From an uncultured Ulvibacter sp. (GTDB lineage: Bacteria; Bacteroidota; Bacteroidia; Flavobacteriales; Flavobacteriaceae): 64,000 nucleotides of DNA. The stretch covers positions 49,633 through 113,632 of the forward strand of contig CAXBES010000014.1 in NCBI GenBank assembly GCA_963974915.1, given 5' to 3'. The notes under the pieces were generated by a model. That model worked only from the letters and a program-made list of their open reading frames with translations, did no database searches and was not told the origin of the DNA. This document shows, one piece after another, positions 22,838 through 33,600 of the stretch (its first letter is position 1; each line of letters starts with the position of its first letter). A program made the position numbers and the translations under genes.

Positions 22838-25285
22838 ATGGCAACAGTTAAGGACAAGTTTACTTTTAAGATTATCCTAAGTTATTTGGTATTGGTAGCC
22901 TTAGCTGTTGTGATGAGTCTGTTTTTATATGCCGAATACAAAGGTTTTCTCGCTTCGGAAACAGAGGAAGACAAGAGTAAGAAGGCGATAGAAACCGGAA
23001 CTTTAATAAATACACTTTACGAAACGGATAGCTTTTCAAGAATAGCACTTCTCACTCAATCTGAAGAAGACTATCAACTGTACCTTTCAAAAGTAGACTC
23101 TTTGGAAGCCAAGATTGAAGAAATCAAAGATCTTAGCACAACACAAAGTCAGATACGCCAGCTAGACAGTGTTAAAGCACTTCTTGATGAGAAAAACAAC
23201 AACATTGAACAATTGCGACTATTAAAGCTAACCAGTAGAGAAGATGCTTCACTCGACAACATATTGAGGGAAATAAAAAAGCTTGAAATTTCTATGGGAA
23301 AGAATTCTCTGGAAACCATTATTAAGGATCCTTCAAAACTCTCGGCTAAAGAGCGTAGAGTCTGGAAATCTTACGTAGATCTGTTAAATAGTAACCTGCT
23401 TAAAGACAGTACTTCTATAAAACCGGCAACGGTAGATTCTATGCTAACGGCGTCCCGGTATATCGTTTCGGAAGCAAAGAGAGAAAATTCGCGCATTAGA
23501 AGGTCTTTACAACAAAAAGAGAATGAGCTTATTGAAAACGATCTCACCATTTCTGCACAACTCCGACAAATAATTGCGGCTTTTGATGCCGAAATTAACA
23601 GAAACAATGCCCGCGAAAAAGCGGTGCGGGAGGCTTCGGTAGAACGTACCAAAAAAATCTTCAGAAATGCGGGAATTATTGGTGCCCTTGTTGTTCTACT
23701 CTTTAGTTATTTAATACTCACAGATTTTTTCAGAGCAGAGAAATTCAGAAGAAACCTGGAAAAAGAAAAGCAGTATTCGGATGCCTTATTAAAAAGCAGG
23801 GAACAACTCATTTCAACAGTAAGTCACGATTTAAAGACTCCGTTAAACACTATAATTGGCTATACCGAATTAATTGAGAATACTTCTCTTACCGAAAAAC
23901 AAAAGTATTACAGTAGTCAGATCACCTCAAGTGCTCATTTTGTGTCCAAACTCGTAGACGACCTGTTAGACTTCTCAAAACTGGAAGCGGGGAAACTTCC
24001 TTTAGAAAGTGTTCCTTTTGCATTAGATAACCTGATAGAAAAGACTGCACATGCCATAAAGGAAATGCACTCGCATAAACCTATCCACCTTTCCGTAACT
24101 ATAGAAGAAAAACTCGAAGGTTCAATGTTTGAAGGGGATCCATTACGAATTCAACAGATCGTAAACAATCTAATTGGAAATGCTTTTAAGTTTACTGAAA
24201 AGGGAGAAATTTCTATCACGGTATCAGAAAAAAATCGCACCGCCAACACCTCTTTCGTGGAAATCCTGGTTCGTGATACCGGAATTGGTATTTCTAAAGA
24301 AAAACAAGAGCTTATTTTTCAGGAATTTACTCAGGCTGAAGCGGATACAGCTCATAAATTTGGGGGCAGTGGCTTGGGATTGGCGATTTCAAAAAAACTG
24401 ACAGAACTTTTGGGAGGTAGTCTAACAGTTTCCAGTATACCACAAAGAGGAAGTACATTTGAATTAAATTTACCTCTTAAAAGAACGAGTAGAATCGTCC
24501 AAAAACCTGCGGCTAAAGAATCAAAACGGTTAAAAAAATTATCGGCATTGATCATTGATGATGATCCGGCAATGGTCGCCTTGTTGAAAGAGCTCTTTCA
24601 ACAAAATTCGATGGATTGTCAGGCATTTACAGAACTTAAAAAACTAAAACAAGAGGTAAAACCAAATTTCGACTTTGTACTAACCGACATACAGATGCCC
24701 GAAATTAGTGGGTTTGAGGTGCTTTCAAGTTTACAGGCTAATGAGGTCTCCGGATATGAAGCTCAACCGGTTATCGCAATGACCGGCAGTAGGGAGTTGT
24801 CCCGGGAAGAATATATCGCAAAAGGCTTTGCCGATATGTTACCCAAACCTTTTTCAAAAAATCAGTTGTTCGATGTTTTAAGTACACTTTTTTCTGAAAG
24901 TGCCACTGTAGGAATAGCAAATAAAAGTGAATCGATTCAACCTGTTGAAGAGCACGAAACCTACAACCTTTCAATGCTTGCTTCCTTTGTGCAAAATGAT
25001 GCTGCGCTAGAAGAAATATTGAATGTCTTTTACGATCAAACCAAAAAGGATCTACTACAGATAAAAAGTGCTGTCTCAACGAAAAATTATAAAGAAATTG
25101 AAAATCTGGCACATAGAATGCTGACCATGTTTAGACAACTTGAAGCTAAAAAAGTAATACCTATCTTAGAGAAGCTTGAAACCACAAACTGGAAGATCTC
25201 AAACGAAGATACGTTAAACAAGGAACTTTCTAATCTCGACAAAGAGGTGGAAATTTTGTTAACTAATTTGCAGTCGAGACAATAA
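22838..25285 (+). CDS. hybrid sensor histidine kinase/response regulator with C-terminal HPt domain
   Basis: N-terminal TM, long coiled coil, HisKA (SHDLKTPLN), HATPase_c, REC (…LTDIQMPEISGFE…) and an HPt-like C-terminus. Confidence 0.85.
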   Translation: MATVKDKFTFKIILSYLVLVALAVVMSLFLYAEYKGFLASETEEDKSKKAIETGTLINTLYETDSFSRIALLTQSEEDYQLYLSKVDSLEAKIEEIKDLSTTQSQIRQLDSVKALLDEKNNNIEQLRLLKLTSREDASLDNILREIKKLEISMGKNSLETIIKDPSKLSAKERRVWKSYVDLLNSNLLKDSTSIKPATVDSMLTASRYIVSEAKRENSRIRRSLQQKENELIENDLTISAQLRQIIAAFDAEINRNNAREKAVREASVERTKKIFRNAGIIGALVVLLFSYLILTDFFRAEKFRRNLEKEKQYSDALLKSREQLISTVSHDLKTPLNTIIGYTELIENTSLTEKQKYYSSQITSSAHFVSKLVDDLLDFSKLEAGKLPLESVPFALDNLIEKTAHAIKEMHSHKPIHLSVTIEEKLEGSMFEGDPLRIQQIVNNLIGNAFKFTEKGEISITVSEKNRTANTSFVEILVRDTGIGISKEKQELIFQEFTQAEADTAHKFGGSGLGLAISKKLTELLGGSLTVSSIPQRGSTFELNLPLKRTSRIVQKPAAKESKRLKKLSALIIDDDPAMVALLKELFQQNSMDCQAFTELKKLKQEVKPNFDFVLTDIQMPEISGFEVLSSLQANEVSGYEAQPVIAMTGSRELSREEYIAKGFADMLPKPFSKNQLFDVLSTLFSESATVGIANKSESIQPVEEHETYNLSMLASFVQNDAALEEILNVFYDQTKKDLLQIKSAVSTKNYKEIENLAHRMLTMFRQLEAKKVIPILEKLETTNWKISNEDTLNKELSNLDKEVEILLTNLQSRQ

Positions 25286-26641
25286 TTATAGTTCGATCTG
25301 GTAGCTCTCGAGCTTATTATACAATGTTTTTCGGGTAATATTTAGAAGTTTTGCAGCCCGGGATTTATTGTAGTCGGCTTCTTTTAGTGCTTTAATGATC
25401 AACAACTTTTCGTTGGTATCTTTCGAAAAATCTATCTTTTCTATTTTTTCTTCGGAAGCTAACACAACTTCTCTTGGTATTGCGTCAATAGGAATCAAAC
25501 TTCCTGATGTTAAGAGTACAGATCTTTTGATCACGTTTTTGAGTTCTCTCAAATTTCCGGGCCAATTGTATTTCTTAAAGGCTACTTCTACCTCTTTCGA
25601 TAAACCCACGACTTGCTTGTTCAATGAAGCATTGGCTTGGTTTAAAAAATAATCGGTAAACAAAAATAAGTCCTCTTTGCGTTCATGTAAAGACGGTATT
25701 TGCACAGAAAACTCGTTTAATCTATGATACAGGTCTTCCCTGAATTTACCTTCCGCGACTCGCTCGAGCAGATTTTCGTTCGTAGCCGATAGAATTCGTA
25801 CATCCACTTCTATCTCTGTATTACTACCTACCGGCTTTATTTTTCTCTCTTGTAAAGCCCTTAATAATTGCACCTGATTTTCATAAGATAGGTTACCAAC
25901 TTCATCTAAAAAAAGAGTTCCATTGTGCGCTGCCTCAAAGTGCCCTTTTTTATCATTAATAGCCCCTGTAAAACTGCCTTTTACATGACCAAAAAATTCG
26001 CTGGAGGCTATTTCTTTAGGTATTGCGCCACAGTCTACTGCTACAAAACTTTCAGAACTCCTTTGACTAAAACCATGAATCGCCTTCGCAGCAACTTCTT
26101 TGCCCGTACCACTTTCTCCTTCAATAAGAACATTCATATCGGTTGGACCTACAAGCTTCAGATATTCATTGAATTTTTTTGAAATTTCGCTTACACCCGA
26201 AACGGCAACCGTTTGGTTTGGAGATCTCCGTTCGGCTTTAACGGTATTAGTTTCCGAAGCTATTGTACCCTTTTCCTTAACAGTTTCAAAAGCCTGTTGT
26301 ATCACCATCAATAACTCTTCGGGTCTAAATGGTTTTGAAATATAATCTAATGCCCCTCTTTTTATTGCTTCTACTGCGGTAGATACCTCGGCATATCCTG
26401 TTATAAGGATCATTTTAGTGTGGGGAGCAACATCTCTGGTGTAGTTGAGAAGGTCCAGACCACTGTCGTTTGGCAGTTTTAGATCGGTAATAAGAAGATC
26501 AAATTTATCTTCTTTTAGTTGTTGTCGTGCCTGAGCACCACCGTAACTTAGCGTTACTTTAAAATTATGTCGCTCTAAAAATGTGGTCAACATTTTGCCA
26601 AAAGCAACGTCATCCTCTACTATAATTATGTTCTGTGCCAT
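25286..26641 (-). CDS. sigma-54-dependent Fis-family response regulator (NtrC-like)
   Basis: REC domain, AAA+ sigma54 activator motifs (GESGTGKE, ESELFGH-like) and a C-terminal HTH. Confidence 0.88.
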   Translation of the reverse strand: MAQNIIIVEDDVAFGKMLTTFLERHNFKVTLSYGGAQARQQLKEDKFDLLITDLKLPNDSGLDLLNYTRDVAPHTKMILITGYAEVSTAVEAIKRGALDYISKPFRPEELLMVIQQAFETVKEKGTIASETNTVKAERRSPNQTVAVSGVSEISKKFNEYLKLVGPTDMNVLIEGESGTGKEVAAKAIHGFSQRSSESFVAVDCGAIPKEIASSEFFGHVKGSFTGAINDKKGHFEAAHNGTLFLDEVGNLSYENQVQLLRALQERKIKPVGSNTEIEVDVRILSATNENLLERVAEGKFREDLYHRLNEFSVQIPSLHERKEDLFLFTDYFLNQANASLNKQVVGLSKEVEVAFKKYNWPGNLRELKNVIKRSVLLTSGSLIPIDAIPREVVLASEEKIEKIDFSKDTNEKLLIIKALKEADYNKSRAAKLLNITRKTLYNKLESYQIEL

Positions 26642-26906
26642 AGTCGCTCGATCGGAACACAAAAATACAGTCTATAGGGCTTGAGAATATTTAAAGTTAT
26701 CATAAAAATTTAATCGCGTATCACAAATAAAAGAGCTCCTTTATCTAAAAAGTGTAAGAGCAAAAAGCACCCACAGTACTTTAGTTTTTGGAAGGGATGG
26801 GGATATTGGCTTAACTAAAACTACTAAACAATCCATTTCCAAATTTTCTTCATAAGTAGCAGATGAAGAAATACTCTTATTATTTTTAGATAAGGAGCTA
26901 ATTCCT

Positions 26907-26935
26907 TAAAAAAAGGGTGCCTAACAAGACACCCT
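26907..26935 (-). terminator. rho-independent terminator
   Basis: AGGGTG-cctaacaaga-CACCCT with a T-run on the minus strand. Confidence 0.5.
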
Positions 26936-26962: not shown

Positions 26963-27310
26963 TTACTGCTTCTTAATCCATTCACCTTTGCTGTTAAGGT
27001 AAACGGTTTGGCTCGCTTTTTTCATACCGTTTGAAGCGGTGGCGATAACCAATTTATATTCTCCTTTTTCATTTTTATATGCTTGTGTGATTGTCGCATC
27101 CTCAAATGTCTTTGCTACAGCGTCCTTAACCGGTTGCGGTAAATCTGTAGCTTTAATTTCCTTGTACTCTTGTACAGCAGCCATATCTTTGTTTACTACT
27201 GCTTCCACTTGTGTCTCTTCAGAAAGTGCAGGTTCTTTATCTTCCGTTTGAGCAGATACTGCAGTTACCATTCCTAATGCGAATACTGAGGCAAAAAAAT
27301 ACTTTTTCAT
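26963..27310 (-). CDS. hypothetical secreted protein
   Basis: Signal peptide (MKKYFFASVFALGMVTAVSAQ); lysine/glutamate-rich. Confidence 0.45.
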   Translation of the reverse strand: MKKYFFASVFALGMVTAVSAQTEDKEPALSEETQVEAVVNKDMAAVQEYKEIKATDLPQPVKDAVAKTFEDATITQAYKNEKGEYKLVIATASNGMKKASQTVYLNSKGEWIKKQ

Positions 27311-27463
27311 TGTTTTTTGTTTTGTAAAATTTATAATTGTTCTTTTTCTGAATAGCATATTGAAAATTTAATGCCAAAACAAAACACTAACGCTAATCGA
27401 TTATAAATGTCTGTAATAAAGCTATTTAATGAATTTTTATCTCAACAAACCATATAACGTGAC

Positions 27464-27500
27464 TGTATAATTACACAACTTTGTGTGTAATAATTACACA
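27464..27500. promoter_or_regulatory. candidate operator: 17-bp perfect palindrome TGTGTAATAATTACACA plus an upstream half-related copy
   Basis: 27484-27500 is a perfect palindrome. A related TGTATAATTACACA sits at 27464-27477. Confidence 0.3.
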
Positions 27501-27516: not shown

Positions 27517-27921
27517 TCAGTCTATGGATGGAGGACGTCTGTTTTTCTTTTTTAAAGCCTGTTCTTTCTTAGACTTTAGTCTTTTCTGAATAGCACTTTT
27601 AGAAGGTTTCGTTTTTTTTCTGGGCTTTGCAACCGTTAAACTCTGCTTCAGTAATTCTAGCATTCGTTCAAGAACGATGGCTTTATTACGATGCTGACTT
27701 CTGGTCTCTCCACATTGTAAAGTTAAAATGCCTTCCGAAGAAATTCTGTTACTGAGTTTTTGCTGTAACCTTTCCTTTTCCAGATCTGTAAAGGCTTCCG
27801 AAGAAATAATATCAAGAGAGATCTCAACTTTAGTGGCAGTTTTATTAACATGTTGCCCACCCGGACCACTACTTCTAACCGCCTTATACTGAAACTCTTT
27901 TATTACGACATCTGTTTGCAT
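27517..27921 (-). CDS. arfB: alternative ribosome rescue factor ArfB (peptidyl-tRNA hydrolase)
   Basis: GGQ motif (SGPGGQHVNKT) and a basic C-terminal tail, about 134 aa. Confidence 0.85.
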   Translation of the reverse strand: MQTDVVIKEFQYKAVRSSGPGGQHVNKTATKVEISLDIISSEAFTDLEKERLQQKLSNRISSEGILTLQCGETRSQHRNKAIVLERMLELLKQSLTVAKPRKKTKPSKSAIQKRLKSKKEQALKKKNRRPPSID

Positions 27922-30017
27922 TAAATACTGGGTCGGTGTTCTTTATTAAGCAAATCGTTAACCGTTTTTACCGGATTAAAAGTTTCGATCGGGACCTCAA
28001 TGCATACAGTGTTCCAATTGGCCATAGAACCATTCCATAGACCGGGACGTTCTAATGCCTTTAGCGGCTTGCCGTTTTCCGACTTGCTGGAAATTAAGCC
28101 TGCTTCCGGATCGATATAGTTTAGCAAATTGAATTTATCACCCTTGTAATCCCTAACCCCGCAAACAATATCTACCGGATTAAAATGCGTTGCTTCATTT
28201 ACTATTGCTTTTTGATGCGGATTGGAAGTATCTATTTGCACCATTTCTACAATTTGAAGTGATATGCGTCCATCTTTTCTAACCCAATACGGGCCACCAC
28301 CCGGGGCACCTGTATTTCTCACCATTCCACACACTCTAATTGGTCTGTTTAAAAGTGAGAAGAATGTAGAAGAATCGTAACTAATTTCCTTAATATTGAG
28401 TTCATTCCATAAAAAAGATTTTATCTCTTTCATTTGTTCCTCGTTCGGTTTCTCTTCTGAAAGAATTCTAAGATAATGAAAGATCTTTCCTTGTAACCAA
28501 AGAAGCTTACCAGCGAGTACTTTTTTATAAAATGCCACGCTTTCCACATAATCTTCGGTAACTACATTATCAATATTCTTAATAAAAATAAGATCTGCAT
28601 CGATCTCGTTTAAATTTTTAATGAGCGCGCCATGACCGGAAGGACGAAATACCAGCTCCCCTTTTTCATTTCTGAAGGGTTTATTCTCCGGCGTTACTGC
28701 AATGGTATCTGTAGCCTTATCCTGAAACGAATACGTAATATTAAAATTTGTTTTGGTCTTTTTACTCACTCTGTTTTTAATTCCTTCAAACTCTTCCTTA
28801 AAGAAGGGTAAATGTTTTTCAGAAAAAGTAAAGTGCAAATAAGCTTCATCGATTGAACACGCGTAAAAGGCGGTTTCATAAAGTTGTTCTTCAAAAGCGG
28901 TAGTCGCGTATTTAGAATACTTATGAAAAGGAATTAAACCTTTTGGAAGTTGTGAAAAGTTGAGACCTTCCTTATCCAACATGGTTTTTACAAAAACATA
29001 AGACCGCATTCCCTTGGTAGAGTGCTTATAGTCTGGATAATTTTCGCGAATTTTTTTCCGTACCATACTAACGAAAGCAAATTCTTTGATGGAACTCAAA
29101 AACCTGCTTAAAGCCGGATAGTTGCCTTTTTTCAGAAAGACATTCAGACTCTGCTTTTCGGGATCATAAAGTTCTAAGAAATTATGCAGAAACTTAAACA
29201 TCCGGGTTGCTGCTCCAGAAGCCGGGATAAACTTAACAAGATCGAGGTGCTCCTTTTTTTCTTCAAAGTGATCGACGAATTTTTGTTTATTATCTTCTGA
29301 AAGTACTTCTATACCATTGCCAACAGATGCCGAAGTAACAATATCTGCAAATGGGATCCCATCAACAAATGTATTTATTTGGTCAACAACTTTTTCTTTA
29401 GACAGCCCATACTCCTCAATTTGCTGTTCATCTTTTTTTGTTAACATACGCTTTGCCTCAATGAGTTTTTTAACGGTTTTAATAGCAATTGCCAGGCGCT
29501 CTTCTTTAGAGCCCTCTAACTTTTGAAAATTAAGGTGGTCGTATTTGTTTAGTTGAGTTTCAAAATTACAAAACAAATTCTCCCTATCATCGGGTCTATC
29601 ACGCAAATCGTCGAAAAAAAATGGCACATCTATGCCTGTAAGTAAGTAAAGTGCGTAAGAATTTTCTTTGGCGTACTTAGCTATCGGTTCCGGACAAAAG
29701 CCATTGTAATAATATTCTGAGTAAACTTTTAACTCCAATAAATTGGTGTCGCAAAAAAGGATGGTATCGGTTTTGGCTGCCGCTTCATTTTCAGCCTTCA
29801 TTTGTCCCACGGCTATAGGCATCAAATCATCTATGGTACATCTCTCCCTTTTGGTATCCCACTTTTCCTGAAGATATTCGCGCATATACTCGGGTACCCA
29901 TAATGTATTAAAATGCTCAGCCAGTTGCTTTGCCAAGGTCGTTTTACCGGTAGATTCGGGGCCGTATAAAACTACTTTTATGCAGCTACAGGGTTGTTGC
30001 TTAAGTGCTTCTTCCAT
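27921..30017 (-). CDS. fusion protein: N-terminal NadR-like P-loop kinase (AAA_28/ribosylnicotinamide kinase-like) + C-terminal DUF4301-like domain with UGPase-like nucleotidyltransferase motifs
   Basis: Walker A GPESTGKTT and an …FCDTNLLELKVYSEYY RNK-like block in residues about 1-190. The C-terminal ~500 aa carry FIPASGAATRMFK and RPSGHGALIKNL…DLIFIKNIDNV, resembling the UDPGP-family G-loop and PGHGD…NIDN motifs. Confidence 0.6.
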   Translation of the reverse strand: MEEALKQQPCSCIKVVLYGPESTGKTTLAKQLAEHFNTLWVPEYMREYLQEKWDTKRERCTIDDLMPIAVGQMKAENEAAAKTDTILFCDTNLLELKVYSEYYYNGFCPEPIAKYAKENSYALYLLTGIDVPFFFDDLRDRPDDRENLFCNFETQLNKYDHLNFQKLEGSKEERLAIAIKTVKKLIEAKRMLTKKDEQQIEEYGLSKEKVVDQINTFVDGIPFADIVTSASVGNGIEVLSEDNKQKFVDHFEEKKEHLDLVKFIPASGAATRMFKFLHNFLELYDPEKQSLNVFLKKGNYPALSRFLSSIKEFAFVSMVRKKIRENYPDYKHSTKGMRSYVFVKTMLDKEGLNFSQLPKGLIPFHKYSKYATTAFEEQLYETAFYACSIDEAYLHFTFSEKHLPFFKEEFEGIKNRVSKKTKTNFNITYSFQDKATDTIAVTPENKPFRNEKGELVFRPSGHGALIKNLNEIDADLIFIKNIDNVVTEDYVESVAFYKKVLAGKLLWLQGKIFHYLRILSEEKPNEEQMKEIKSFLWNELNIKEISYDSSTFFSLLNRPIRVCGMVRNTGAPGGGPYWVRKDGRISLQIVEMVQIDTSNPHQKAIVNEATHFNPVDIVCGVRDYKGDKFNLLNYIDPEAGLISSKSENGKPLKALERPGLWNGSMANWNTVCIEVPIETFNPVKTVNDLLNKEHRPSI

Positions 30018-30610
30018 GAAATATATCCAAAAATGGCTATAAAGGTAAATATAAGATATTGGAAGCTCGTAAAAGTAAACCCTTTATAAAAATAAAGTGG
30101 TACAGAAATCACATCCCCTACGATCCAATATATCCAATTCTCAATTTTTCGTTTGGCCATTAACCACATCCCCACAAAAAAGATCCCTGTAGTTATGGTG
30201 TCTACGTAAGCAGTCCAGTCGTTCCATTTGTCGAAGATCCGGTAAATAACAAATACGAATAAAAGTGTAGCAAGAAATATTAAGATCGAATATTGTTGCT
30301 CCCGTTTTGTGGTTTTCGAAATAGGGGTAACATGAGTCGCATCCACCTTACGAGTCCAAATAAACCAGCCGTAAACACTCATTATAAAATAATAAGCATT
30401 GATCATCATATCGCCCAGCAACGACCATTTTAAAAGTAAATACACGAAGATCGCGGTACTGATCATCCCCGTAGGGAAGACCCAAATTTTGTTCTCTTTA
30501 GAGAACCAAACAGATAAAAATCCAAAGATCACCGCAACGATTTCCAGAACAATATCCACCCTGTCGTAATCCTGATATTGACCAAATAAAAATTCAAAAA
30601 TGGGGCTCAT
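29978..30610 (-). CDS. pnuC: nicotinamide riboside (Pnu-family) transporter
   Basis: 210 aa, polytopic, with the conserved …SVYGWFIW motif. Confidence 0.85.
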   Translation of the reverse strand: MSPIFEFLFGQYQDYDRVDIVLEIVAVIFGFLSVWFSKENKIWVFPTGMISTAIFVYLLLKWSLLGDMMINAYYFIMSVYGWFIWTRKVDATHVTPISKTTKREQQYSILIFLATLLFVFVIYRIFDKWNDWTAYVDTITTGIFFVGMWLMAKRKIENWIYWIVGDVISVPLYFYKGFTFTSFQYLIFTFIAIFGYISWKKHLSNNPVAA

Positions 30611-30854
30611 ACTCGCTTCTGTCGGTTTTTACTATTTTTATATACAGCAATCCATTTTCGACGGCTTCTAAGGCTGTTTTCATTTCCTTCTGAAGTACTT
30701 TCATTACCTGATCATAATCACCGTAAACTTGGGTACTCAACGGATTCTCCAATACTGTTAGTCCCGAGCCTCGCAGTTGTTGAATGAAATTTATAATTGC
30801 AGGCTCAAAAGAATCCTGAAGTGGTGTTAATGTTAATTCTACAGAAATTTTCAT
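30594..30854 (-). CDS. MTH1187/YkoF-family small ligand (thiamine-type)-binding protein
   Basis: 86 aa with a ferredoxin-like fold signature of the YkoF/DUF77 family. Confidence 0.55.
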   Translation of the reverse strand: MKISVELTLTPLQDSFEPAIINFIQQLRGSGLTVLENPLSTQVYGDYDQVMKVLQKEMKTALEAVENGLLYIKIVKTDRSEYEPHF

Positions 30855-30863
30855 ATCCTATTC

Positions 30864-31565
30864 TTAAATTTGAGTTTCATAAACCGTTCCCATAACAACC
30901 ATATCTGCTCCGGCACCGTATGCCTTATTCATTTGTTCTTTTCTTCTAATGCCCCCACCAACGATCAACGGAATCGAAATTGCTTTCTTTACTTCAGAAA
31001 TAATACCTGGTAATACAGGAATTTGGGCTCCACTACCAGCTTCCAAATAGAGCAACTTCGCACCCATGTATTGCCCGGCCAATGCGGTACGAACAATTTG
31101 CAACACATCGTCTTGAGACATTGGGGCAGTGCCACTAACACGTGCAACCGAAGAATTATTCCCGCCATCTACCAATATATAACCTGTTGGGATCACTTCT
31201 AAATTAGTTTTAGATAGTTTTTCTACAGATTTCACCTGCTGACCAATAAGATACTCCGGATTTCGTCCGGAAATAAGGGACAAAAAGAGAAGTGCATCTG
31301 CTCTATCGGTAATTTGAGAATGATCTCCGGGAAAAAGAAAAACCGGTAATTTACAGTTTGCTTTCAGGGCTTTTACCGCCGTTTCTGTATGTCCATTAGC
31401 AACTGTACTTCCACCTACGAACAAATGTGTGGTTTCCTTCGGGATTTTCTTCAGAAAAGAAGTCACTTCAGAAATAGAAAATTTATCCGGATCTATTAAA
31501 ATAGCAAGGCATTTTTGTTTTTCAGAAATAAGTTTCAGAATAGAATTGTAATGCATTAATATCAT
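30864..31565 (-). CDS. geranylgeranylglyceryl/heptaprenylglyceryl phosphate synthase family protein (PcrB/GGGPS-like)
   Basis: TIM-barrel GGGPS signature (…LFVGGST…GADMVVMGT…). Confidence 0.7.
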   Translation of the reverse strand: MILMHYNSILKLISEKQKCLAILIDPDKFSISEVTSFLKKIPKETTHLFVGGSTVANGHTETAVKALKANCKLPVFLFPGDHSQITDRADALLFLSLISGRNPEYLIGQQVKSVEKLSKTNLEVIPTGYILVDGGNNSSVARVSGTAPMSQDDVLQIVRTALAGQYMGAKLLYLEAGSGAQIPVLPGIISEVKKAISIPLIVGGGIRRKEQMNKAYGAGADMVVMGTVYETQI

Positions 31566-31567
31566 TT

Positions 31568-32197
31568 TTATTGAAGTAATGCGTAGGCGCAAGTAAACTC
31601 GTCGAATTCCAGAAAACTAACATCATAATCAACTCTCACATCTTCAAAGCTAACATTGGCGGTGGTATCACTGGCTTCCAGTCTAAAATCTTCTACATAA
31701 ATATTCTGAATAAAACTCACCCCAGGGGTAGCGAAACTTTTATAGAGCGATTCTTTGGCGCACCAAACAATAGTTAGCTTTCGCATAATAGCATCGTCGT
31801 TGGCCAAAGTTCGGTATTCTTCAATTGGCGTAAATTTGTGAGCGATCTTTAAGATCTTTAATCGCTGTTTTTCTATATCAATCCCTACCTCCATATCACT
31901 TACGATGATAGCCGAAAAAATAAACGAATGAGTGATAGAAATATGTTTATCGTCCTTTAAATGCGGTTTCCCATGGTCGTCGTAATACAAATCGAAATCT
32001 GTATAACCCTCAAGAGCTAAAAGTTTCCTTACACTCATAAAACCCCGGCGATGCAGATCACTTTTCATTCCATCTACTCGCTCCCTGCAATGTGTAGTGA
32101 GCTCAACTCCCCGAGAGAGTTCATCAAACGATTCTTCTATCTTCCAAATGAGGACTTTAGTGCTTTTGTTAACTGTTATAGTTTTGTAAAGAGGCAT
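31568..32197 (-). CDS. 4'-phosphopantetheinyl transferase family protein
   Basis: PPTase motifs (…GIDIE… and W-C-A-K-E-S-L-Y-K). Confidence 0.7.
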   Translation of the reverse strand: MPLYKTITVNKSTKVLIWKIEESFDELSRGVELTTHCRERVDGMKSDLHRRGFMSVRKLLALEGYTDFDLYYDDHGKPHLKDDKHISITHSFIFSAIIVSDMEVGIDIEKQRLKILKIAHKFTPIEEYRTLANDDAIMRKLTIVWCAKESLYKSFATPGVSFIQNIYVEDFRLEASDTTANVSFEDVRVDYDVSFLEFDEFTCAYALLQ

Positions 32198-32283
32198 AAA
32201 TATGTTAGAGATATTACGTACTTTTGCAGTCGAAAAATTAATTTTAACAGATTCCCTGCTTATAGGGAATAAAGATAATAAAT

Positions 32284-33600
32284 ATGTCAACGAACACAGT
32301 ACCTTACACCGCTTATAAAGTAAAAGATATTTCCCTGGCAGATTGGGGACGTAAAGAAATTGAACTTGCCGAAGCAGAAATGCCCGGTTTAATGTCTTTA
32401 AGAGAAGAGTATAAAGATGAGCAACCGTTAAAAGGTGCTCGTATCGCCGGATGTCTGCACATGACTATTCAAACAGCCGTTCTTATTGAAACATTACAAG
32501 CCCTGGGAGCCGATGTTACCTGGAGTTCTTGTAATATTTTCTCTACACAAGACCAGGCTGCTGCTGCGGTAGCTGCTGCCGGAACACCCGTTTATGCCTG
32601 GAAAGGTATGACAGAAGAAGAGTTCGACTGGTGTATTGAACAAACTCTGTTCTTTGGTGAAGACCGTAAGCCATTAAATATGATACTTGACGATGGAGGT
32701 GACCTTACCAATATGGTTTTAGACAAATACCCTGAATTGACGTCAGGAATTAAAGGCTTGAGTGAAGAAACTACTACAGGAGTTCACCGTTTATATGAAC
32801 GAGTAAAAAAGGGAACTCTTCCTATGCCGGCTATTAATATTAACGATAGTGTTACAAAATCTAAATTTGATAATAAGTACGGATGTCGCGAAAGTGCTGT
32901 AGATGCGATTAGACGTGCAACCGATGTGATGCTTGCCGGTAAACGTGTTGTAGTTTGTGGTTATGGAGATGTTGGAAAAGGTACCGCTGCTTCGTTTAAA
33001 GGAGCCGGTTCTATTGTTACCGTTACCGAAATCGACCCGATCTGTGCACTTCAGGCTGCGATGGACGGATTTGAGGTTAAGCGTTTGGAAACCGTTGTTG
33101 GAAATGCAGATATCGTAATAACTACCACAGGAAACAAGGATATTGTTCAAGGAAAACATTTTCAGGCGATGAAAGATAAAACCATCGTTTGTAATATTGG
33201 ACATTTTGATAACGAGATCGCAGTTTCATGGCTTAACGACAATTACGGAAACACTAAGGTTGAGATCAAACCTCAGGTAGATAAATACACTATCGATGGA
33301 AAAGACATCATTCTTTTGGCCGAAGGTCGTTTGGTGAATTTAGGTTGTGCTACAGGTCACCCAAGTTTTGTAATGAGTAACTCGTTTACCAATCAGACGT
33401 TGGCACAAATTGAATTGTGGAAACACAGCGACAGATACGAAAATGAAGTTTATATGCTTCCGAAGCACTTAGATGAGAAAGTGGCACAATTGCACTTGGC
33501 AAAGATTGGTGTTGAGTTAACCGAACTTCGTGAAGATCAGGCAGAATACATTGGAGTTCCTGTAAAAGGTCCATTCAAGCCAGAGTATTATAGATACTAA
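32284..33600 (+). CDS. ahcY: adenosylhomocysteinase
   Basis: 438 aa with an NAD-binding GYGDVGKG motif; full-length SAHH similarity. Confidence 0.95.

What the first reader, a model, noticed from the sequence alone, without database searches (positions are those of the whole stretch)
27517..32197. Tight six-gene minus-strand operon: PPTase - GGGPS-like - YkoF-like - PnuC - kinase/nucleotidyltransferase fusion - ArfB
All six genes overlap or are separated by 10 nt or less: 31568/31565, 30864/30854, 30610/30594, 30017/29978 and 27921/27921. That implies co-transcription and translational coupling. The combination of a 4'-phosphopantetheinyl transferase, a prenylglyceryl-phosphate synthase homologue (archaeal-type ether-lipid enzyme family with an unresolved role in Bacteroidota), a YkoF/MTH1187 small ligand-binding protein, a Pnu-family vitamin transporter and a kinase-nucleotidyltransferase does not match a textbook pathway. 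It may define an uncharacterised uptake and activation pathway (vitamin/nucleoside salvage linked to prenylated or phosphopantetheinylated product formation).
Basis: inference. Interest (0 to 1): 0.6.

Follow-up and report, generated by a model that had tools for sequence, protein, structure and literature searches.

The report
Conserved flavobacterial vitamin-B3 salvage operon
Six tightly packed genes form an operon-like cluster (transcription not measured) kept across the Flavobacteriaceae; its core looks like a nicotinamide-riboside uptake-and-trapping unit joined, and often fused, to an uncharacterised sugar-nucleotide-pyrophosphorylase-like enzyme (DUF4301), while the lipid, carrier-protein and ribosome-rescue genes look like unrelated passengers.

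Summary
Six minus-strand genes lie at 27517-32197 with junctions of +2, +9, -17, -40 and -1 nt, and every family assignment holds.

The order AhcY(divergent) | PPTase - [GGGPS] - [UPF0045/YkoF-like] - PnuC - RNK - DUF4301 - [ArfB] recurs in 80 Flavobacteriaceae genomes, and the gene overlaps are conserved.

The cluster is modular rather than one pathway:
- GGGPS, the YkoF-like gene and ArfB are each missing from a quarter to two fifths of loci.
- Opposite-strand genes split the PPTase from GGGPS in several Flavobacterium species.

The core is PnuC plus a NadR-type ribosylnicotinamide kinase, which is textbook nicotinamide-riboside uptake and trapping. It is followed by DUF4301. A confident model shows DUF4301 has the eukaryote-type UDP-sugar pyrophosphorylase fold.

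The kinase and DUF4301 are one polypeptide here and in 20 of 74 loci, spread over at least seven clades. The equally tight neighbouring junctions are never fused.

My best guess (confidence about 0.4) is a NadR analogue in which DUF4301 nucleotidylates the kinase product. Against this, DUF4301 is a solitary gene in 88 other Bacteroidota loci, so an ordinary UDP-sugar pyrophosphorylase remains a strong rival.

The link to prenylation or phosphopantetheinylation is not supported.

The parts
31568..32197 (-). Sfp-type 4'-phosphopantetheinyl transferase (209 aa). It is the first gene of the cluster and is always divergent from ahcY.
   Evidence: PF01648 scores 44.4 bits against a cut-off of 25. 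The motifs VGIDIE and WCAKESLYK are visible in the translation. The gene is present at the head of the cluster in essentially every locus whose contig reaches that far.
30864..31565 (-). Group II geranylgeranylglyceryl-phosphate synthase (PcrB/GGGPS family, 233 aa). It is a variable member of the cluster.
   Evidence: NF003198 scores 269 bits (cut-off 247), TIGR01769 173 (161.6) and PF01884 118.8. It is present in about 47 of 80 loci. Inserted opposite-strand genes separate it from the PPTase in L016, L017, L021, L022 and L077.
30594..30854 (-). UPF0045/DUF77 (MTH1187/YkoF-like) small ferredoxin-fold protein (86 aa). Its last 17 nt overlap the pnuC start.
   Evidence: PF01910 scores 30.9 bits (cut-off 24.9). 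The AF2 model has pLDDT 70.5 and a beta-alpha-beta-beta-alpha-beta topology. Its best fold matches are 2ibo, 1vk8 (TM0486), 2eky, 1yqh, 1lxj and 1lxn. It is 81-88% identical across genera. The -17 nt overlap is kept in 48 of 53 loci. It is absent from all 6 loci that lack the kinase.
29978..30610 (-). Pnu-family facilitator (PnuC, 210 aa), the predicted nicotinamide riboside transporter.
   Evidence: PF04973 scores 181.8 bits and TIGR01528 scores 107.6 bits (cut-off 42.45). It aligns to the N. mucosa PnuC structure 4QTN and carries WIYWIVGD, an instance of the WxxW(x)3D/N motif (PMC5749112). Its 40-nt overlap with the kinase gene is conserved in 67 of 74 loci as -40 or -46 nt.
29448..30017 (-). 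N-terminal domain (about aa 1-190) of the 698-aa protein: a NadR-type ribosylnicotinamide kinase (AAA_28). It lacks the NadR NMNAT domain.
27921..29447 (-). C-terminal DUF4301 domain (about aa 191-698): an uncharacterised nucleotidyltransferase with the eukaryote-type UDP-sugar pyrophosphorylase fold. The ancestral start Met is retained at the fusion point (..EAKR-MLTKKD..).
27517..27921 (-). ArfB, the alternative ribosome-rescue peptidyl-tRNA hydrolase (134 aa). It is the last gene, a variable member and a likely passenger.
   Evidence: NF006718 scores 123.5 bits (cut-off 100) and PF00472 also matches. The translation shows the GGQ motif (SGPGGQHVNKT) and a basic C-terminal tail. The gene is present in about 53 of 80 loci and is never fused to DUF4301 (0 of 53).
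32198..32283 (.). 86-nt divergent control region between the PPTase gene and ahcY. It carries Bacteroidetes-type -7 boxes (TAnnTTTG) in both directions and a 7-bp inverted repeat.
   Evidence: In the operon sense, TATATTTG in relatives and TATCTTTA here lie next to the ahcY ATG. On the ahcY-sense strand, TACTTTTG lies about 25 nt from the PPTase ATG. Both positions are conserved across loci. That TAnnTTTG is a promoter element is established knowledge of Bacteroidetes promoters, not something tested here.

Best explanation
This is a conserved, probably co-transcribed Flavobacteriaceae operon built from separable modules.

**The constrained core** is UPF0045 - PnuC - RNK - DUF4301.
- PnuC lets nicotinamide riboside diffuse in.
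- The NadR-type kinase phosphorylates it to NMN, which traps it in the cell. This step follows from homology to NadR and PnuC.
- The DUF4301 domain is fused to the kinase. It has a UDP-sugar-pyrophosphorylase fold and keeps the family's conserved motifs.
- I infer that DUF4301 transfers a nucleotidyl group from an NTP onto the kinase product, giving NAD or a related dinucleotide. It would then play the part that the missing NMNAT domain plays in NadR.
- The small UPF0045 protein is translationally coupled to PnuC. I infer that it is a cytoplasmic ligand-binding accessory of the uptake module.

**The passengers** are the PPTase, GGGPS and ArfB. They look like housekeeping genes that share the promoter but not the pathway.

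Shown here: gene identities, folds, conserved order and overlaps, and recurrent fusion restricted to the RNK/DUF4301 junction.

Inferred: co-transcription, the substrates of PnuC, RNK and DUF4301, and any role for UPF0045.
For: Family assignments and folds.

The order and overlaps are conserved in 80 genomes across many genera.

RNK is immediately followed by DUF4301 in 74 of 80 loci. The two are a single ORF in 20 of those 74.

Fused forms fall in at least seven separate clades of an NJ tree. These include the whole Flavobacterium genus sample and this window's lineage. Independent assemblies confirm the fusion (P0001-P0003).

An internal control supports a specific link. Equally tight junctions are never fused: DUF4301/ArfB 0 of 53, PPTase/GGGPS 0 of 38, YkoF/PnuC 0 of 53, PnuC/RNK 0 of 74.

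The kinase lacks the NadR NMNAT domain, because only the C-terminal part of TIGR01526 matches. A nucleotidyltransferase partner is therefore 'missing'.

Kinase plus nucleotidyltransferase fusions that act in sequence are an established theme (NadR, RibF, HldE, Bacteroides FKP). This rests on general knowledge.

Evidence that the cluster is modular:
- Some Aquimarina have lost YkoF, PnuC and RNK together while keeping PPTase-DUF4301 (L064, L065 against L032, L039).
- The YkoF-like gene is absent from all six kinase-less loci but present in about 54 of 74 loci with the kinase.
- GGGPS and ArfB are variably absent.
- Unrelated genes are inserted between the PPTase and GGGPS.

No TPP or NAD riboswitch was found, and no internal TAnnTTTG box lies before a gene start.
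Against: - DUF4301 is a large family found across Bacteroidota: 1104 clusters at 50% identity with E<=1e-30, including Bacteroidales and Cytophagales.
- In 88 loci outside the Flavobacteriaceae it has no PnuC, RNK, PPTase, GGGPS, UPF0045 or ArfB within about 6 kb.
- Its invariant residues are the same in kinase-linked and unlinked members. This implies one general activity that does not depend on nicotinamide riboside uptake.
- DUF4301 is kept in six Flavobacteriaceae loci that have lost the kinase.
- Every characterised structural relative uses UTP and a sugar 1-phosphate. There is no precedent for NMN as acceptor in this fold.
- No gap in Bacteroidota NAD metabolism is known to me that needs a new NMNAT.
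- Co-transcription and all substrates are untested.
Confidence: 0.4

Rival explanations
1. DUF4301 is simply the Bacteroidota housekeeping UDP-sugar pyrophosphorylase (a UDP-glucose or broad UDP-sugar pyrophosphorylase) with no role in NAD metabolism. In Flavobacteriaceae it happens to sit downstream of a standard PnuC-RNK salvage pair in a mixed housekeeping operon. NMN then goes to NAD by the usual routes: deamidation by PncC, then NadD and NadE. The fusions are tolerated accidents of a 4-nt ATGA overlap.
For: - The fold and all closest structures are UTP:sugar-1-phosphate uridylyltransferases, and there are weak PF01704 hits.
- It is a solitary gene with a phylum-wide distribution and no salvage genes nearby.
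- It is kept where the kinase is lost.
- The same invariant residues occur everywhere.
- The Prevotella ruminicola DUF4301 protein is detectable in a rumen metaproteome (PMC7035244).
- Bacteroidetes carry a eukaryote-like GT3 glycogen synthase, a class that uses UDP-glucose (PMC11046441). A UDP-glucose source is therefore needed.
- Other clearly unrelated genes in this operon are just as tightly packed.
Against: - It does not explain why fusions arise and persist only at the RNK/DUF4301 junction (20 of 74) and never at the comparably overlapping DUF4301/ArfB or PPTase/GGGPS junctions.
- It does not explain why a whole genus keeps the fused form.
- Whether Bacteroidota lack a GalU-type enzyme was not testable here.
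Confidence: 0.33
2. One reading: all six genes serve one uncharacterised pathway in which an imported vitamin or nucleoside is activated and joined to a prenylated (GGGPS) or phosphopantetheinylated (PPTase) product.
For: The six-gene arrangement with tight junctions is found in 26 of 80 genomes. PPTase/GGGPS spacing is usually -4 to +1 nt. The function of GGGPS in Bacteroidetes is unknown (PMC7888582).
Against: - GGGPS is missing from the locus in about 33 of 80 genomes and ArfB in about 27.
- Opposite-strand regulator and globin genes, or a large secreted-protein gene, split the PPTase from GGGPS in several Flavobacterium species.
- No carrier-protein gene and no further lipid gene is in the cluster.
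- Outside the family DUF4301 never neighbours GGGPS or the PPTase.
- Synteny also covers unrelated flanking genes.
Confidence: 0.05
3. The module handles thiamine or a thiamine precursor rather than nicotinamide riboside. On this view a PnuT-like transporter works with a thiamine/HMP-binding UPF0045 protein, a divergent kinase and a nucleotidyltransferase that makes an adenylated or uridylated thiamine derivative.
For: The UPF0045/YkoF family is annotated as thiamine-binding, and TM0486 (1vk8) is among the best fold matches. The transporter has Asp in the WxxW(x)3D/N motif, as in PnuT of S. woodyi, where N. mucosa PnuC has Asn (PMC5749112).
Against: - The kinase is specifically NadR-RNK-like in sequence and fold.
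- To my knowledge, no known thiamine kinase has this fold.
- No TPP riboswitch occurs in the window or in five related loci.
- The D/N position is not diagnostic. A second Pnu paralogue that sits next to a TonB-dependent receptor in L059 has Asn.
Confidence: 0.05

Closest known systems
PnuC-NadR nicotinamide riboside salvage (Haemophilus influenzae, Salmonella, Lactococcus lactis)
   Same: A Pnu-family facilitator is encoded next to, and here overlaps, a NadR-type ribosylnicotinamide kinase that traps the substrate. The kinase is joined to a second, nucleotidyltransferase-type domain in one polypeptide (PMC5749112, PMC7221760).
   Different: - The HIGH-motif NMNAT domain and the HTH domain of NadR are absent.
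- The partner domain is a roughly 510-aa UDP-sugar-pyrophosphorylase-fold DUF4301 placed C-terminal to the kinase, whereas the NMNAT domain sits N-terminal to the kinase in NadR.
- The partner is a separate gene in most relatives and a solitary gene elsewhere in the phylum.
- Its activity is unknown.
Eukaryote-type UDP-sugar pyrophosphorylases (UDPGP family, PF01704: UGPase, UAP/AGX, USP)
   Different: - Sequence similarity is below Pfam's threshold (best 21.2 bits against 22; no PDB hit by HMMER).
- The motifs are altered: PASGAATRM instead of the GGLGT.MG I recall for UGPases, and GHGA instead of GHGD.
- The family is confined to Bacteroidota and is sometimes fused to a nucleoside kinase.
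- Its substrates are untested.
Bifunctional kinase/nucleotidyltransferase salvage enzymes (RibF, HldE, Bacteroides fucokinase/GDP-fucose pyrophosphorylase FKP)
   Same: The architecture follows the same logic: a kinase domain and a pyrophosphorylase-type domain in one chain act on one imported small molecule. This comparison rests on general knowledge.
   Different: The domains are not homologous to those enzymes. Consecutive action is only inferred here.
MTH1187/YkoF/UPF0045 (DUF77) small ligand-binding proteins, some linked to thiamine/HMP transport
   Same: It passes the Pfam PF01910 cut-off and has the ferredoxin-like fold. It is encoded next to a vitamin transporter gene.
   Different: It is partnered with a Pnu facilitator and a NadR-type kinase rather than an ABC/ECF thiamine-precursor transporter. 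It is unusually well conserved (81-88% identity across genera). Its ligand is unknown.

Membership tests
NadR (bifunctional NMNAT / ribosylnicotinamide kinase) | C-terminal RNK domain with a P-loop and NadR-specific motifs | tested here: met
NadR (bifunctional NMNAT / ribosylnicotinamide kinase) | N-terminal HIGH-motif NMN adenylyltransferase domain | tested here: not met
   TIGR01526 matches only model positions 164-323 of 325, scoring 89 bits against a cut-off of 341. The kinase starts at residue 14 of the protein, so no NMNAT domain is present.
NadR (bifunctional NMNAT / ribosylnicotinamide kinase) | Phosphorylates nicotinamide riboside | not testable with these tools
   An enzyme assay is needed.
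Pnu transporter family (PnuC) | Family HMMs above the curated cut-offs, plus the WxxW(x)3D/N motif | tested here: met
   PF04973 scores 181.8 bits and TIGR01528 scores 107.6 bits against 42.45. WIYWIVGD aligns to the TM6 motif of 4QTN (PMC5749112).
Pnu transporter family (PnuC) | Substrate assigned from the co-located kinase (nicotinamide riboside if the kinase is a NadR-type RNK) | tested here: met
   The kinase gene overlaps pnuC by 40 nt, and the overlap is conserved in 67 of 74 loci. This is a context rule, not a transport assay.
UDPGP family (PF01704, UDP-sugar pyrophosphorylases) | Pfam gathering threshold | tested here: not met
   The window protein has no PF01704 hit. The best hit among 30 distant DUF4301 proteins scores 21.2 bits against a cut-off of 22, and 18 of the 30 give weak hits. 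HMMER finds no PDB match.
UDPGP family (PF01704, UDP-sugar pyrophosphorylases) | Catalytic-domain fold | tested here: met
UDPGP family (PF01704, UDP-sugar pyrophosphorylases) | Conserved nucleotide-loop, GHG, N.DN and C-terminal Lys motifs in equivalent positions | tested here: inconclusive
   Invariant PASGAATRM, RPSGHGAL, KNIDN and FNPVKTVNDLL occur in the expected order. Their equivalence to UGPase motifs rests on my reading and memory, because no residue-level structural alignment was available.
UDPGP family (PF01704, UDP-sugar pyrophosphorylases) | UTP + sugar 1-phosphate -> UDP-sugar + PPi activity | not testable with these tools
   An enzyme assay is needed.
Geranylgeranylglyceryl phosphate synthase (group II, PcrB family) | Family HMMs above the curated cut-offs | tested here: met
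   NF003198 scores 269.3 bits (cut-off 247), TIGR01769 173 (161.55), TIGR01768 155.8 (113.25) and PF01884 118.8.
Sfp-type 4'-phosphopantetheinyl transferase | ACPS-superfamily domain, a length of about 200-240 aa, and the G.D and W..KE(S/A)..K motifs | tested here: met
   PF01648 scores 44.4 bits. The protein is 209 aa, and VGIDIE and WCAKESLYK are in the translation. That these are the defining motifs rests on established knowledge.
ArfB (alternative ribosome rescue factor B) | Equivalog HMM above its cut-off, a GGQ motif and a basic C-terminal tail | tested here: met
   NF006718 scores 123.5 bits against 100. The translation shows GPGGQ and the KKKNRRPP tail.
UPF0045 / MTH1187 / YkoF (PF01910) | Family HMM above its cut-off and a ferredoxin-like fold | tested here: met
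   PF01910 scores 30.9 bits against 24.9. Foldseek matches 2ibo at 4e-7, and 1vk8, 2eky, 1yqh, 1lxj and 1lxn at about 1e-5. The model is of only moderate confidence (pLDDT 70.5).
UPF0045 / MTH1187 / YkoF (PF01910) | Binds thiamine or HMP | not testable with these tools
   A binding assay is needed.
Operon (single transcription unit) | Same strand, short or negative spacers, conserved across genomes | tested here: met
Operon (single transcription unit) | One promoter upstream, none inside, and a terminator after the last gene | tested here: inconclusive
   - A conserved TAnnTTTG-type box lies upstream of the PPTase gene (TATCTTTA here, an exact match in relatives).
- No such box precedes an internal gene start.
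- No convincing intrinsic terminator follows arfB. The first strong one lies after the next gene, at 26935-26914.
- No transcript data are available.

The most novel reading that the evidence does not exclude
The RNK-DUF4301 pair, or fusion, is a NadR analogue in which a UDP-sugar-pyrophosphorylase-fold enzyme replaces the HIGH-motif NMN adenylyltransferase. DUF4301 would then be a new, non-homologous class of NMN nucleotidyltransferase. It would make NAD or possibly a non-adenine nicotinamide dinucleotide, and it would be present across Bacteroidota. The conserved UPF0045 protein would be a new cytoplasmic accessory of Pnu-type vitamin uptake.
Probability: 0.3. Interest if true: 0.8.

Novelty: new variant of a known kind. 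Interest (0 to 1): 0.5.

Why it matters
DUF4301 is a large protein family found across the Bacteroidota, with more than 1100 clusters at 50% identity. It occurs in gut Bacteroidales, soil Cytophagales and marine Flavobacteriaceae. In the library I could search, it has no assigned function and only one incidental mention.

This locus gives DUF4301 a fold, a set of candidate catalytic motifs and a specific, testable partner, the NadR-type kinase.

- If DUF4301 acts on NMN, it would add a third, unrelated enzyme class to a central step of NAD synthesis in a dominant gut and ocean phylum.
- If it is a UDP-sugar pyrophosphorylase, it would identify a eukaryote-type route to UDP-sugars in bacteria that also carry a eukaryote-like glycogen synthase.

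Either result removes a widespread DUF. The analysis also shows that GGGPS and the PPTase are not tied to this module. This narrows the search for the still unknown role of bacterial GGGPS.

Tried and rejected
- **Riboswitch or other RNA control.** Rfam gave no hit at gathering threshold in the whole window or in five related loci. This rules out TPP and NAD riboswitch control as far as known families go.
- **Sigma-70 promoter and terminator scan.** It found no more sites than in shuffled sequence for promoters, and it does not cover Bacteroidetes promoters. I replaced it with a TAnnTTTG search.
- **Sequence-level link of DUF4301 to solved structures.** HMMER profiles found none, only the kinase part. 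The link needed structure prediction.
- **AFDB fold library.** It was not available.
- **Recurrent neighbours of DUF4301 outside the family.** The only one was a divergent RelA/SpoT-like gene in 30 of 85 loci. This probably reflects lineage synteny and says nothing about function.
- **Phage and viral collections.** DUF4301 is essentially absent. The three short 'Bacteriophage sp.' fecal contigs are likely bacterial.
- **The D/N position of the Pnu motif as a specificity marker.** I rejected it, because a paralogue next to a TonB-dependent receptor has Asn.
- **NrtR regulation.** The NrtR paper assigns Bacteroidetes NrtR to pentose regulons, not to pnuC (PMC2330246).
- **Literature on GalU in Bacteroidota.** Nothing decisive was found.

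Full report
**1.

The region 27517-32197 carries six minus-strand ORFs at exactly the stated positions. Reading the sequence gives these junctions:
- PPTase stop TAA (31570-31568), 2 nt, then the GGGPS ATG at 31565.
- GGGPS stop, 9 nt, then the ATG of the 86-aa gene at 30854.
- A 17-nt overlap of that gene with pnuC.
- A 40-nt overlap of pnuC with the 698-aa gene.
- A 1-nt overlap (TAATG) with arfB.

The chosen ATG starts are supported by homologue alignments that begin at residue 1 and by the register of the NCBIfam alignment.

A rough ORF call shows that 16 of 46 same-strand junctions in this window are 10 nt or less. A run of five is therefore the longest in the window but not remarkable by itself. 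Conservation across genomes is the real test.

**2. Gene identities**

Pfam and NCBIfam confirm every label above the curated thresholds:
- An Sfp-type PPTase (PF01648).
- A group II GGGPS (NF003198, TIGR01769).
- A UPF0045/Thiamine_BP protein (PF01910).
- PnuC (PF04973, TIGR01528).
- ArfB (NF006718, with GGQ and a basic tail).

The 698-aa protein consists of AAA_28 (residues 14-174) plus DUF4301 (residues 193-695).

The N-terminal domain is specifically the ribosylnicotinamide-kinase domain of NadR.
- A profile search of the PDB finds four NadR structures at E-values of 1e-22 to 1e-11, with the P-loop, the WVPEY.REY motif and Walker B aligned.
- The NMNAT domain of NadR is absent.

The divergent neighbour at 32284-33600 is S-adenosylhomocysteine hydrolase. 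Downstream lie a small secreted protein, an NtrC-type sigma-54 activator and a hybrid histidine kinase.

**3. What DUF4301 is**

Only one paper in the searchable library mentions DUF4301, and only as a protein detected in a rumen metaproteome. HMMER profiles find no solved relative.

An AlphaFold2 model built from 51 sequences is confident (mean pLDDT 88.8). It matches eukaryote-type UDP-glucose, UDP-GlcNAc and UDP-sugar pyrophosphorylases:
- Foldseek gives E-values of 3e-10 to 3e-8 and probability 1.0.

At the sequence level, 18 of 30 distant members give sub-threshold PF01704 hits.

These stretches are invariant in both Flavobacteriaceae and other Bacteroidota: PASGAATRM, PKGL.PFH, RPSGHGAL, KNIDN, CGMV.N.G.PGGGP.W, THFNPVD and FNPVKTVNDLL. 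By my reading they correspond in order to the nucleotide loop, GHG, N.DN and catalytic-Lys motifs of UGPases. That equivalence rests on inspection and memory, not on a residue-level superposition.

**4. Synteny**

I anchored on DUF4301 and fetched 80 loci from species-representative genomes, all Flavobacteriaceae. I then located homologues of each window gene by tblastn.

The order AhcY(divergent) | PPTase - [GGGPS] - [UPF0045] - PnuC - RNK - DUF4301 - [ArfB] recurs in Flavobacterium, Winogradskyella, Maribacter, Flagellimonas, Aquimarina, Dokdonia, Gramella, Algibacter, Olleya and others. The complete six-gene form seen in the window occurs in 26 loci.

Spacing is conserved as well:
- UPF0045/PnuC is -17 nt in 48 of 53 loci.
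- PnuC/RNK is -40 or -46 nt in 67 of 74 loci.
- RNK/DUF4301 is mostly -4 or -1 nt where the genes are split.
- DUF4301/ArfB is mostly -1 to +2 nt.
- PPTase/GGGPS is mostly -4 to +1 nt.

The refutation condition 'synteny unique to this genome' therefore fails.

**5. The cluster is modular**

- GGGPS is missing from the locus in about 33 of 80 genomes, ArfB in about 27 and UPF0045 in about 26.
- In several Flavobacterium species, 0.9-2.3 kb lies between the PPTase and GGGPS. It carries opposite-strand genes for a Crp-like regulator, a truncated-globin-like protein and a small membrane protein, or a large secreted repeat protein. Other unrelated genes sit between GGGPS and UPF0045 in Dokdonia and Gramella.
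- Two Aquimarina genomes have only AhcY | PPTase - DUF4301. They have lost UPF0045, PnuC and RNK together, while other Aquimarina keep them.
- UPF0045 is absent from all six loci that lack the kinase.
- Synteny continues into the unrelated downstream secreted-protein and NtrC genes in many genera. This shows that inherited gene order contributes to the pattern.
- Because ArfB and the PPTase/GGGPS pair are packed as tightly as the core, tight spacing in this operon cannot be taken as evidence of a shared pathway.

**6. The specific RNK-DUF4301 link**

RNK and DUF4301 are one ORF in 20 of 74 loci and two adjacent ORFs in 54. Independent assemblies confirm the fusion seen in the window (P0001 to P0003).

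In the window the ancestral DUF4301 start survives as an internal Met (..EAKR-MLTKKD..). In split relatives the gene begins MLTEKD or MLTKKD.

On an NJ tree of the DUF4301 part, fused forms fall in at least seven separate clades:
- all sampled Flavobacterium with a kinase
- the window's lineage
- P0003
- a Maribacter
- the Flagellimonas/Croceivirga/Croceitalea group
- P0047
- a Winogradskyella-group protein
- a Xanthomarina

As an internal control, no fusion occurs at any other tight junction: DUF4301/ArfB 0 of 53, PPTase/GGGPS 0 of 38, UPF0045/PnuC 0 of 53 and PnuC/RNK 0 of 74. These counts are not phylogenetically independent, but the contrast is clear.

**7. DUF4301 outside the family**

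- The family has 1104 clusters at 50% identity with E<=1e-30. It includes Bacteroidales and many Cytophagales.
- In Spirosoma, a Bacteroidales MAG and Flexithrix it is a solitary gene among unrelated neighbours.
- In 85 loci (80 metagenome loci chosen to be close to a distant member, plus the five), none has PnuC, RNK, PPTase, GGGPS, UPF0045, ArfB or AhcY within about 6 kb.
- The only recurrent neighbour is a divergent RelA/SpoT-like gene, in 30 of 85 loci.
- DUF4301 therefore has a general role that does not depend on nicotinamide riboside uptake. Its association with the kinase is a Flavobacteriaceae feature.

**8. The other core parts**

PnuC carries the WxxW(x)3D/N ligand motif as WIYWIVGD (PMC5749112). 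Asp at that position resembles PnuT, but a second Pnu paralogue beside a TonB-dependent receptor in L059 has Asn. The position is therefore not diagnostic.

The accepted context rule assigns substrate by the co-located kinase (PMC5749112). It points to nicotinamide riboside.

No TPP or NAD riboswitch is present.

The UPF0045 protein is modelled at moderate confidence as a ferredoxin-like fold. It matches SP2199, TM0486, MJ1052, a Bacillus DUF77 protein, YBL001c and MTH1187. It is 81-88% identical across genera, more than its neighbours. Its ligand is unknown.

**9. Control region**

The 86-nt AhcY/PPTase spacer holds conserved Bacteroidetes-type -7 boxes in both orientations.
- The operon-sense box lies next to the ahcY start. 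It reads TATATTTG in many relatives and TATCTTTA here.
- The ahcY-sense box (TACTTTTG) lies about 25 nt from the PPTase start.
- The two 5' untranslated regions would therefore overlap.

No TAnnTTTG box precedes an internal gene start.

No convincing terminator follows arfB. The first strong one on that strand lies after the next gene.

Co-transcription is thus plausible but not shown.

**10. Interpretation**

The best-supported reading is a conserved housekeeping operon. Its core is a nicotinamide riboside uptake and trapping module (PnuC plus a NadR-type kinase) with two additions not described in the literature I could search:
- a translationally coupled UPF0045 protein, and
- a UDP-sugar-pyrophosphorylase-fold enzyme that is repeatedly fused to the kinase.

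I favour, at about 0.4, the view that DUF4301 nucleotidylates the kinase product. That would make it a NadR analogue.

The main rival, at about 0.33, is that DUF4301 is an ordinary UDP-sugar pyrophosphorylase that merely shares the operon. Four observations fit this rival:
- its solitary, phylum-wide distribution
- the UTP and sugar-phosphate specificity of all its structural relatives
- its detection in a Prevotella proteome (PMC7035244)
- the presence in Bacteroidetes of a GT3 glycogen synthase, a class that uses UDP-glucose (PMC11046441)

**11. Novelty and score**

PnuC plus ribosylnicotinamide kinase is known. GGGPS, the PPTase and ArfB are ordinary members of their families. What is new is the conserved and often fused pairing of the kinase with DUF4301, the fold assignment of DUF4301, and the coupling of UPF0045 to PnuC.

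I rate this a new variant of a known kind, with interest 0.5. It is not surprising as an operon, but it makes a large DUF directly testable.

Noticed in passing
window 32198-32283: The ahcY/PPTase spacer holds Bacteroidetes-type -7 promoter boxes in both directions. Each box lies near the start codon of the opposite gene, so the two 5'UTRs would be antisense to each other. There is also a 7-bp inverted repeat, ATTCCCT-n6-AGGGAAT, with compensated versions in L010 and L030.
   Followed up: partly
window 27464-27500 (minus strand, just downstream of arfB): An AT-rich palindrome, TGTGTAATTATTACACA, is followed by a near repeat, TTGTGTAATTATACA. They lie upstream of the small secreted-protein gene (26963-27358), which precedes an NtrC-type sigma-54 activator. 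They could be an operator or enhancer site, or a weak terminator. A TGGCAT..TTTCA stretch nearby loosely resembles a -24/-12 promoter.
   Followed up: no
window 26914-26935: The first strong intrinsic-terminator-like hairpin on the minus strand after the cluster (AGGGTGTC..GGCACCCT followed by a T run) lies after the 131-aa gene, not after arfB. The transcription unit might therefore extend one gene further.
   Followed up: no
L086-L165 (metagenome loci) and L082-L084: Outside Flavobacteriaceae, DUF4301 sits divergently about 135 nt from a 755-aa RelA/SpoT-like (p)ppGpp synthetase/hydrolase gene in 30 of 85 loci. This probably reflects lineage synteny.
   Followed up: partly
window 30594-30854 and proteins P0392-P0511: The 86-aa UPF0045 protein is far more conserved (81-88% identity across Aequorivita, Altibacter, Ulvibacter and Leeuwenhoekiella) than the neighbouring PnuC, kinase and DUF4301 (about 50-80%). 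An identical copy occurs on 16 contigs, including Tara Oceans data. The window therefore comes from a marine Flavobacteriaceae related to Aequorivita and Altibacter.
   Followed up: partly
L059 18443-21297: A second Pnu-family paralogue (198 aa, motif WVYWIILN) lies directly after a TonB-dependent receptor gene in Kriegella aquimaris. No TPP riboswitch was detected there. Its substrate is unknown.
   Followed up: partly
L077 and L079 (Flavobacterium sp. DGU99, F. proteolyticum); L058; L068: These loci have lost the kinase but keep pnuC directly next to DUF4301. In L079 the two genes overlap. A Pnu facilitator without its trapping kinase is odd, unless another kinase exists elsewhere in the genome.
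   Followed up: no
window 22838-26662: A hybrid sensor histidine kinase (815 aa, plus strand) and an NtrC-type sigma-54 activator (minus strand) converge, with their gene ends abutting (25285/25286). The same pair follows the cluster in many related genomes.
   Followed up: no
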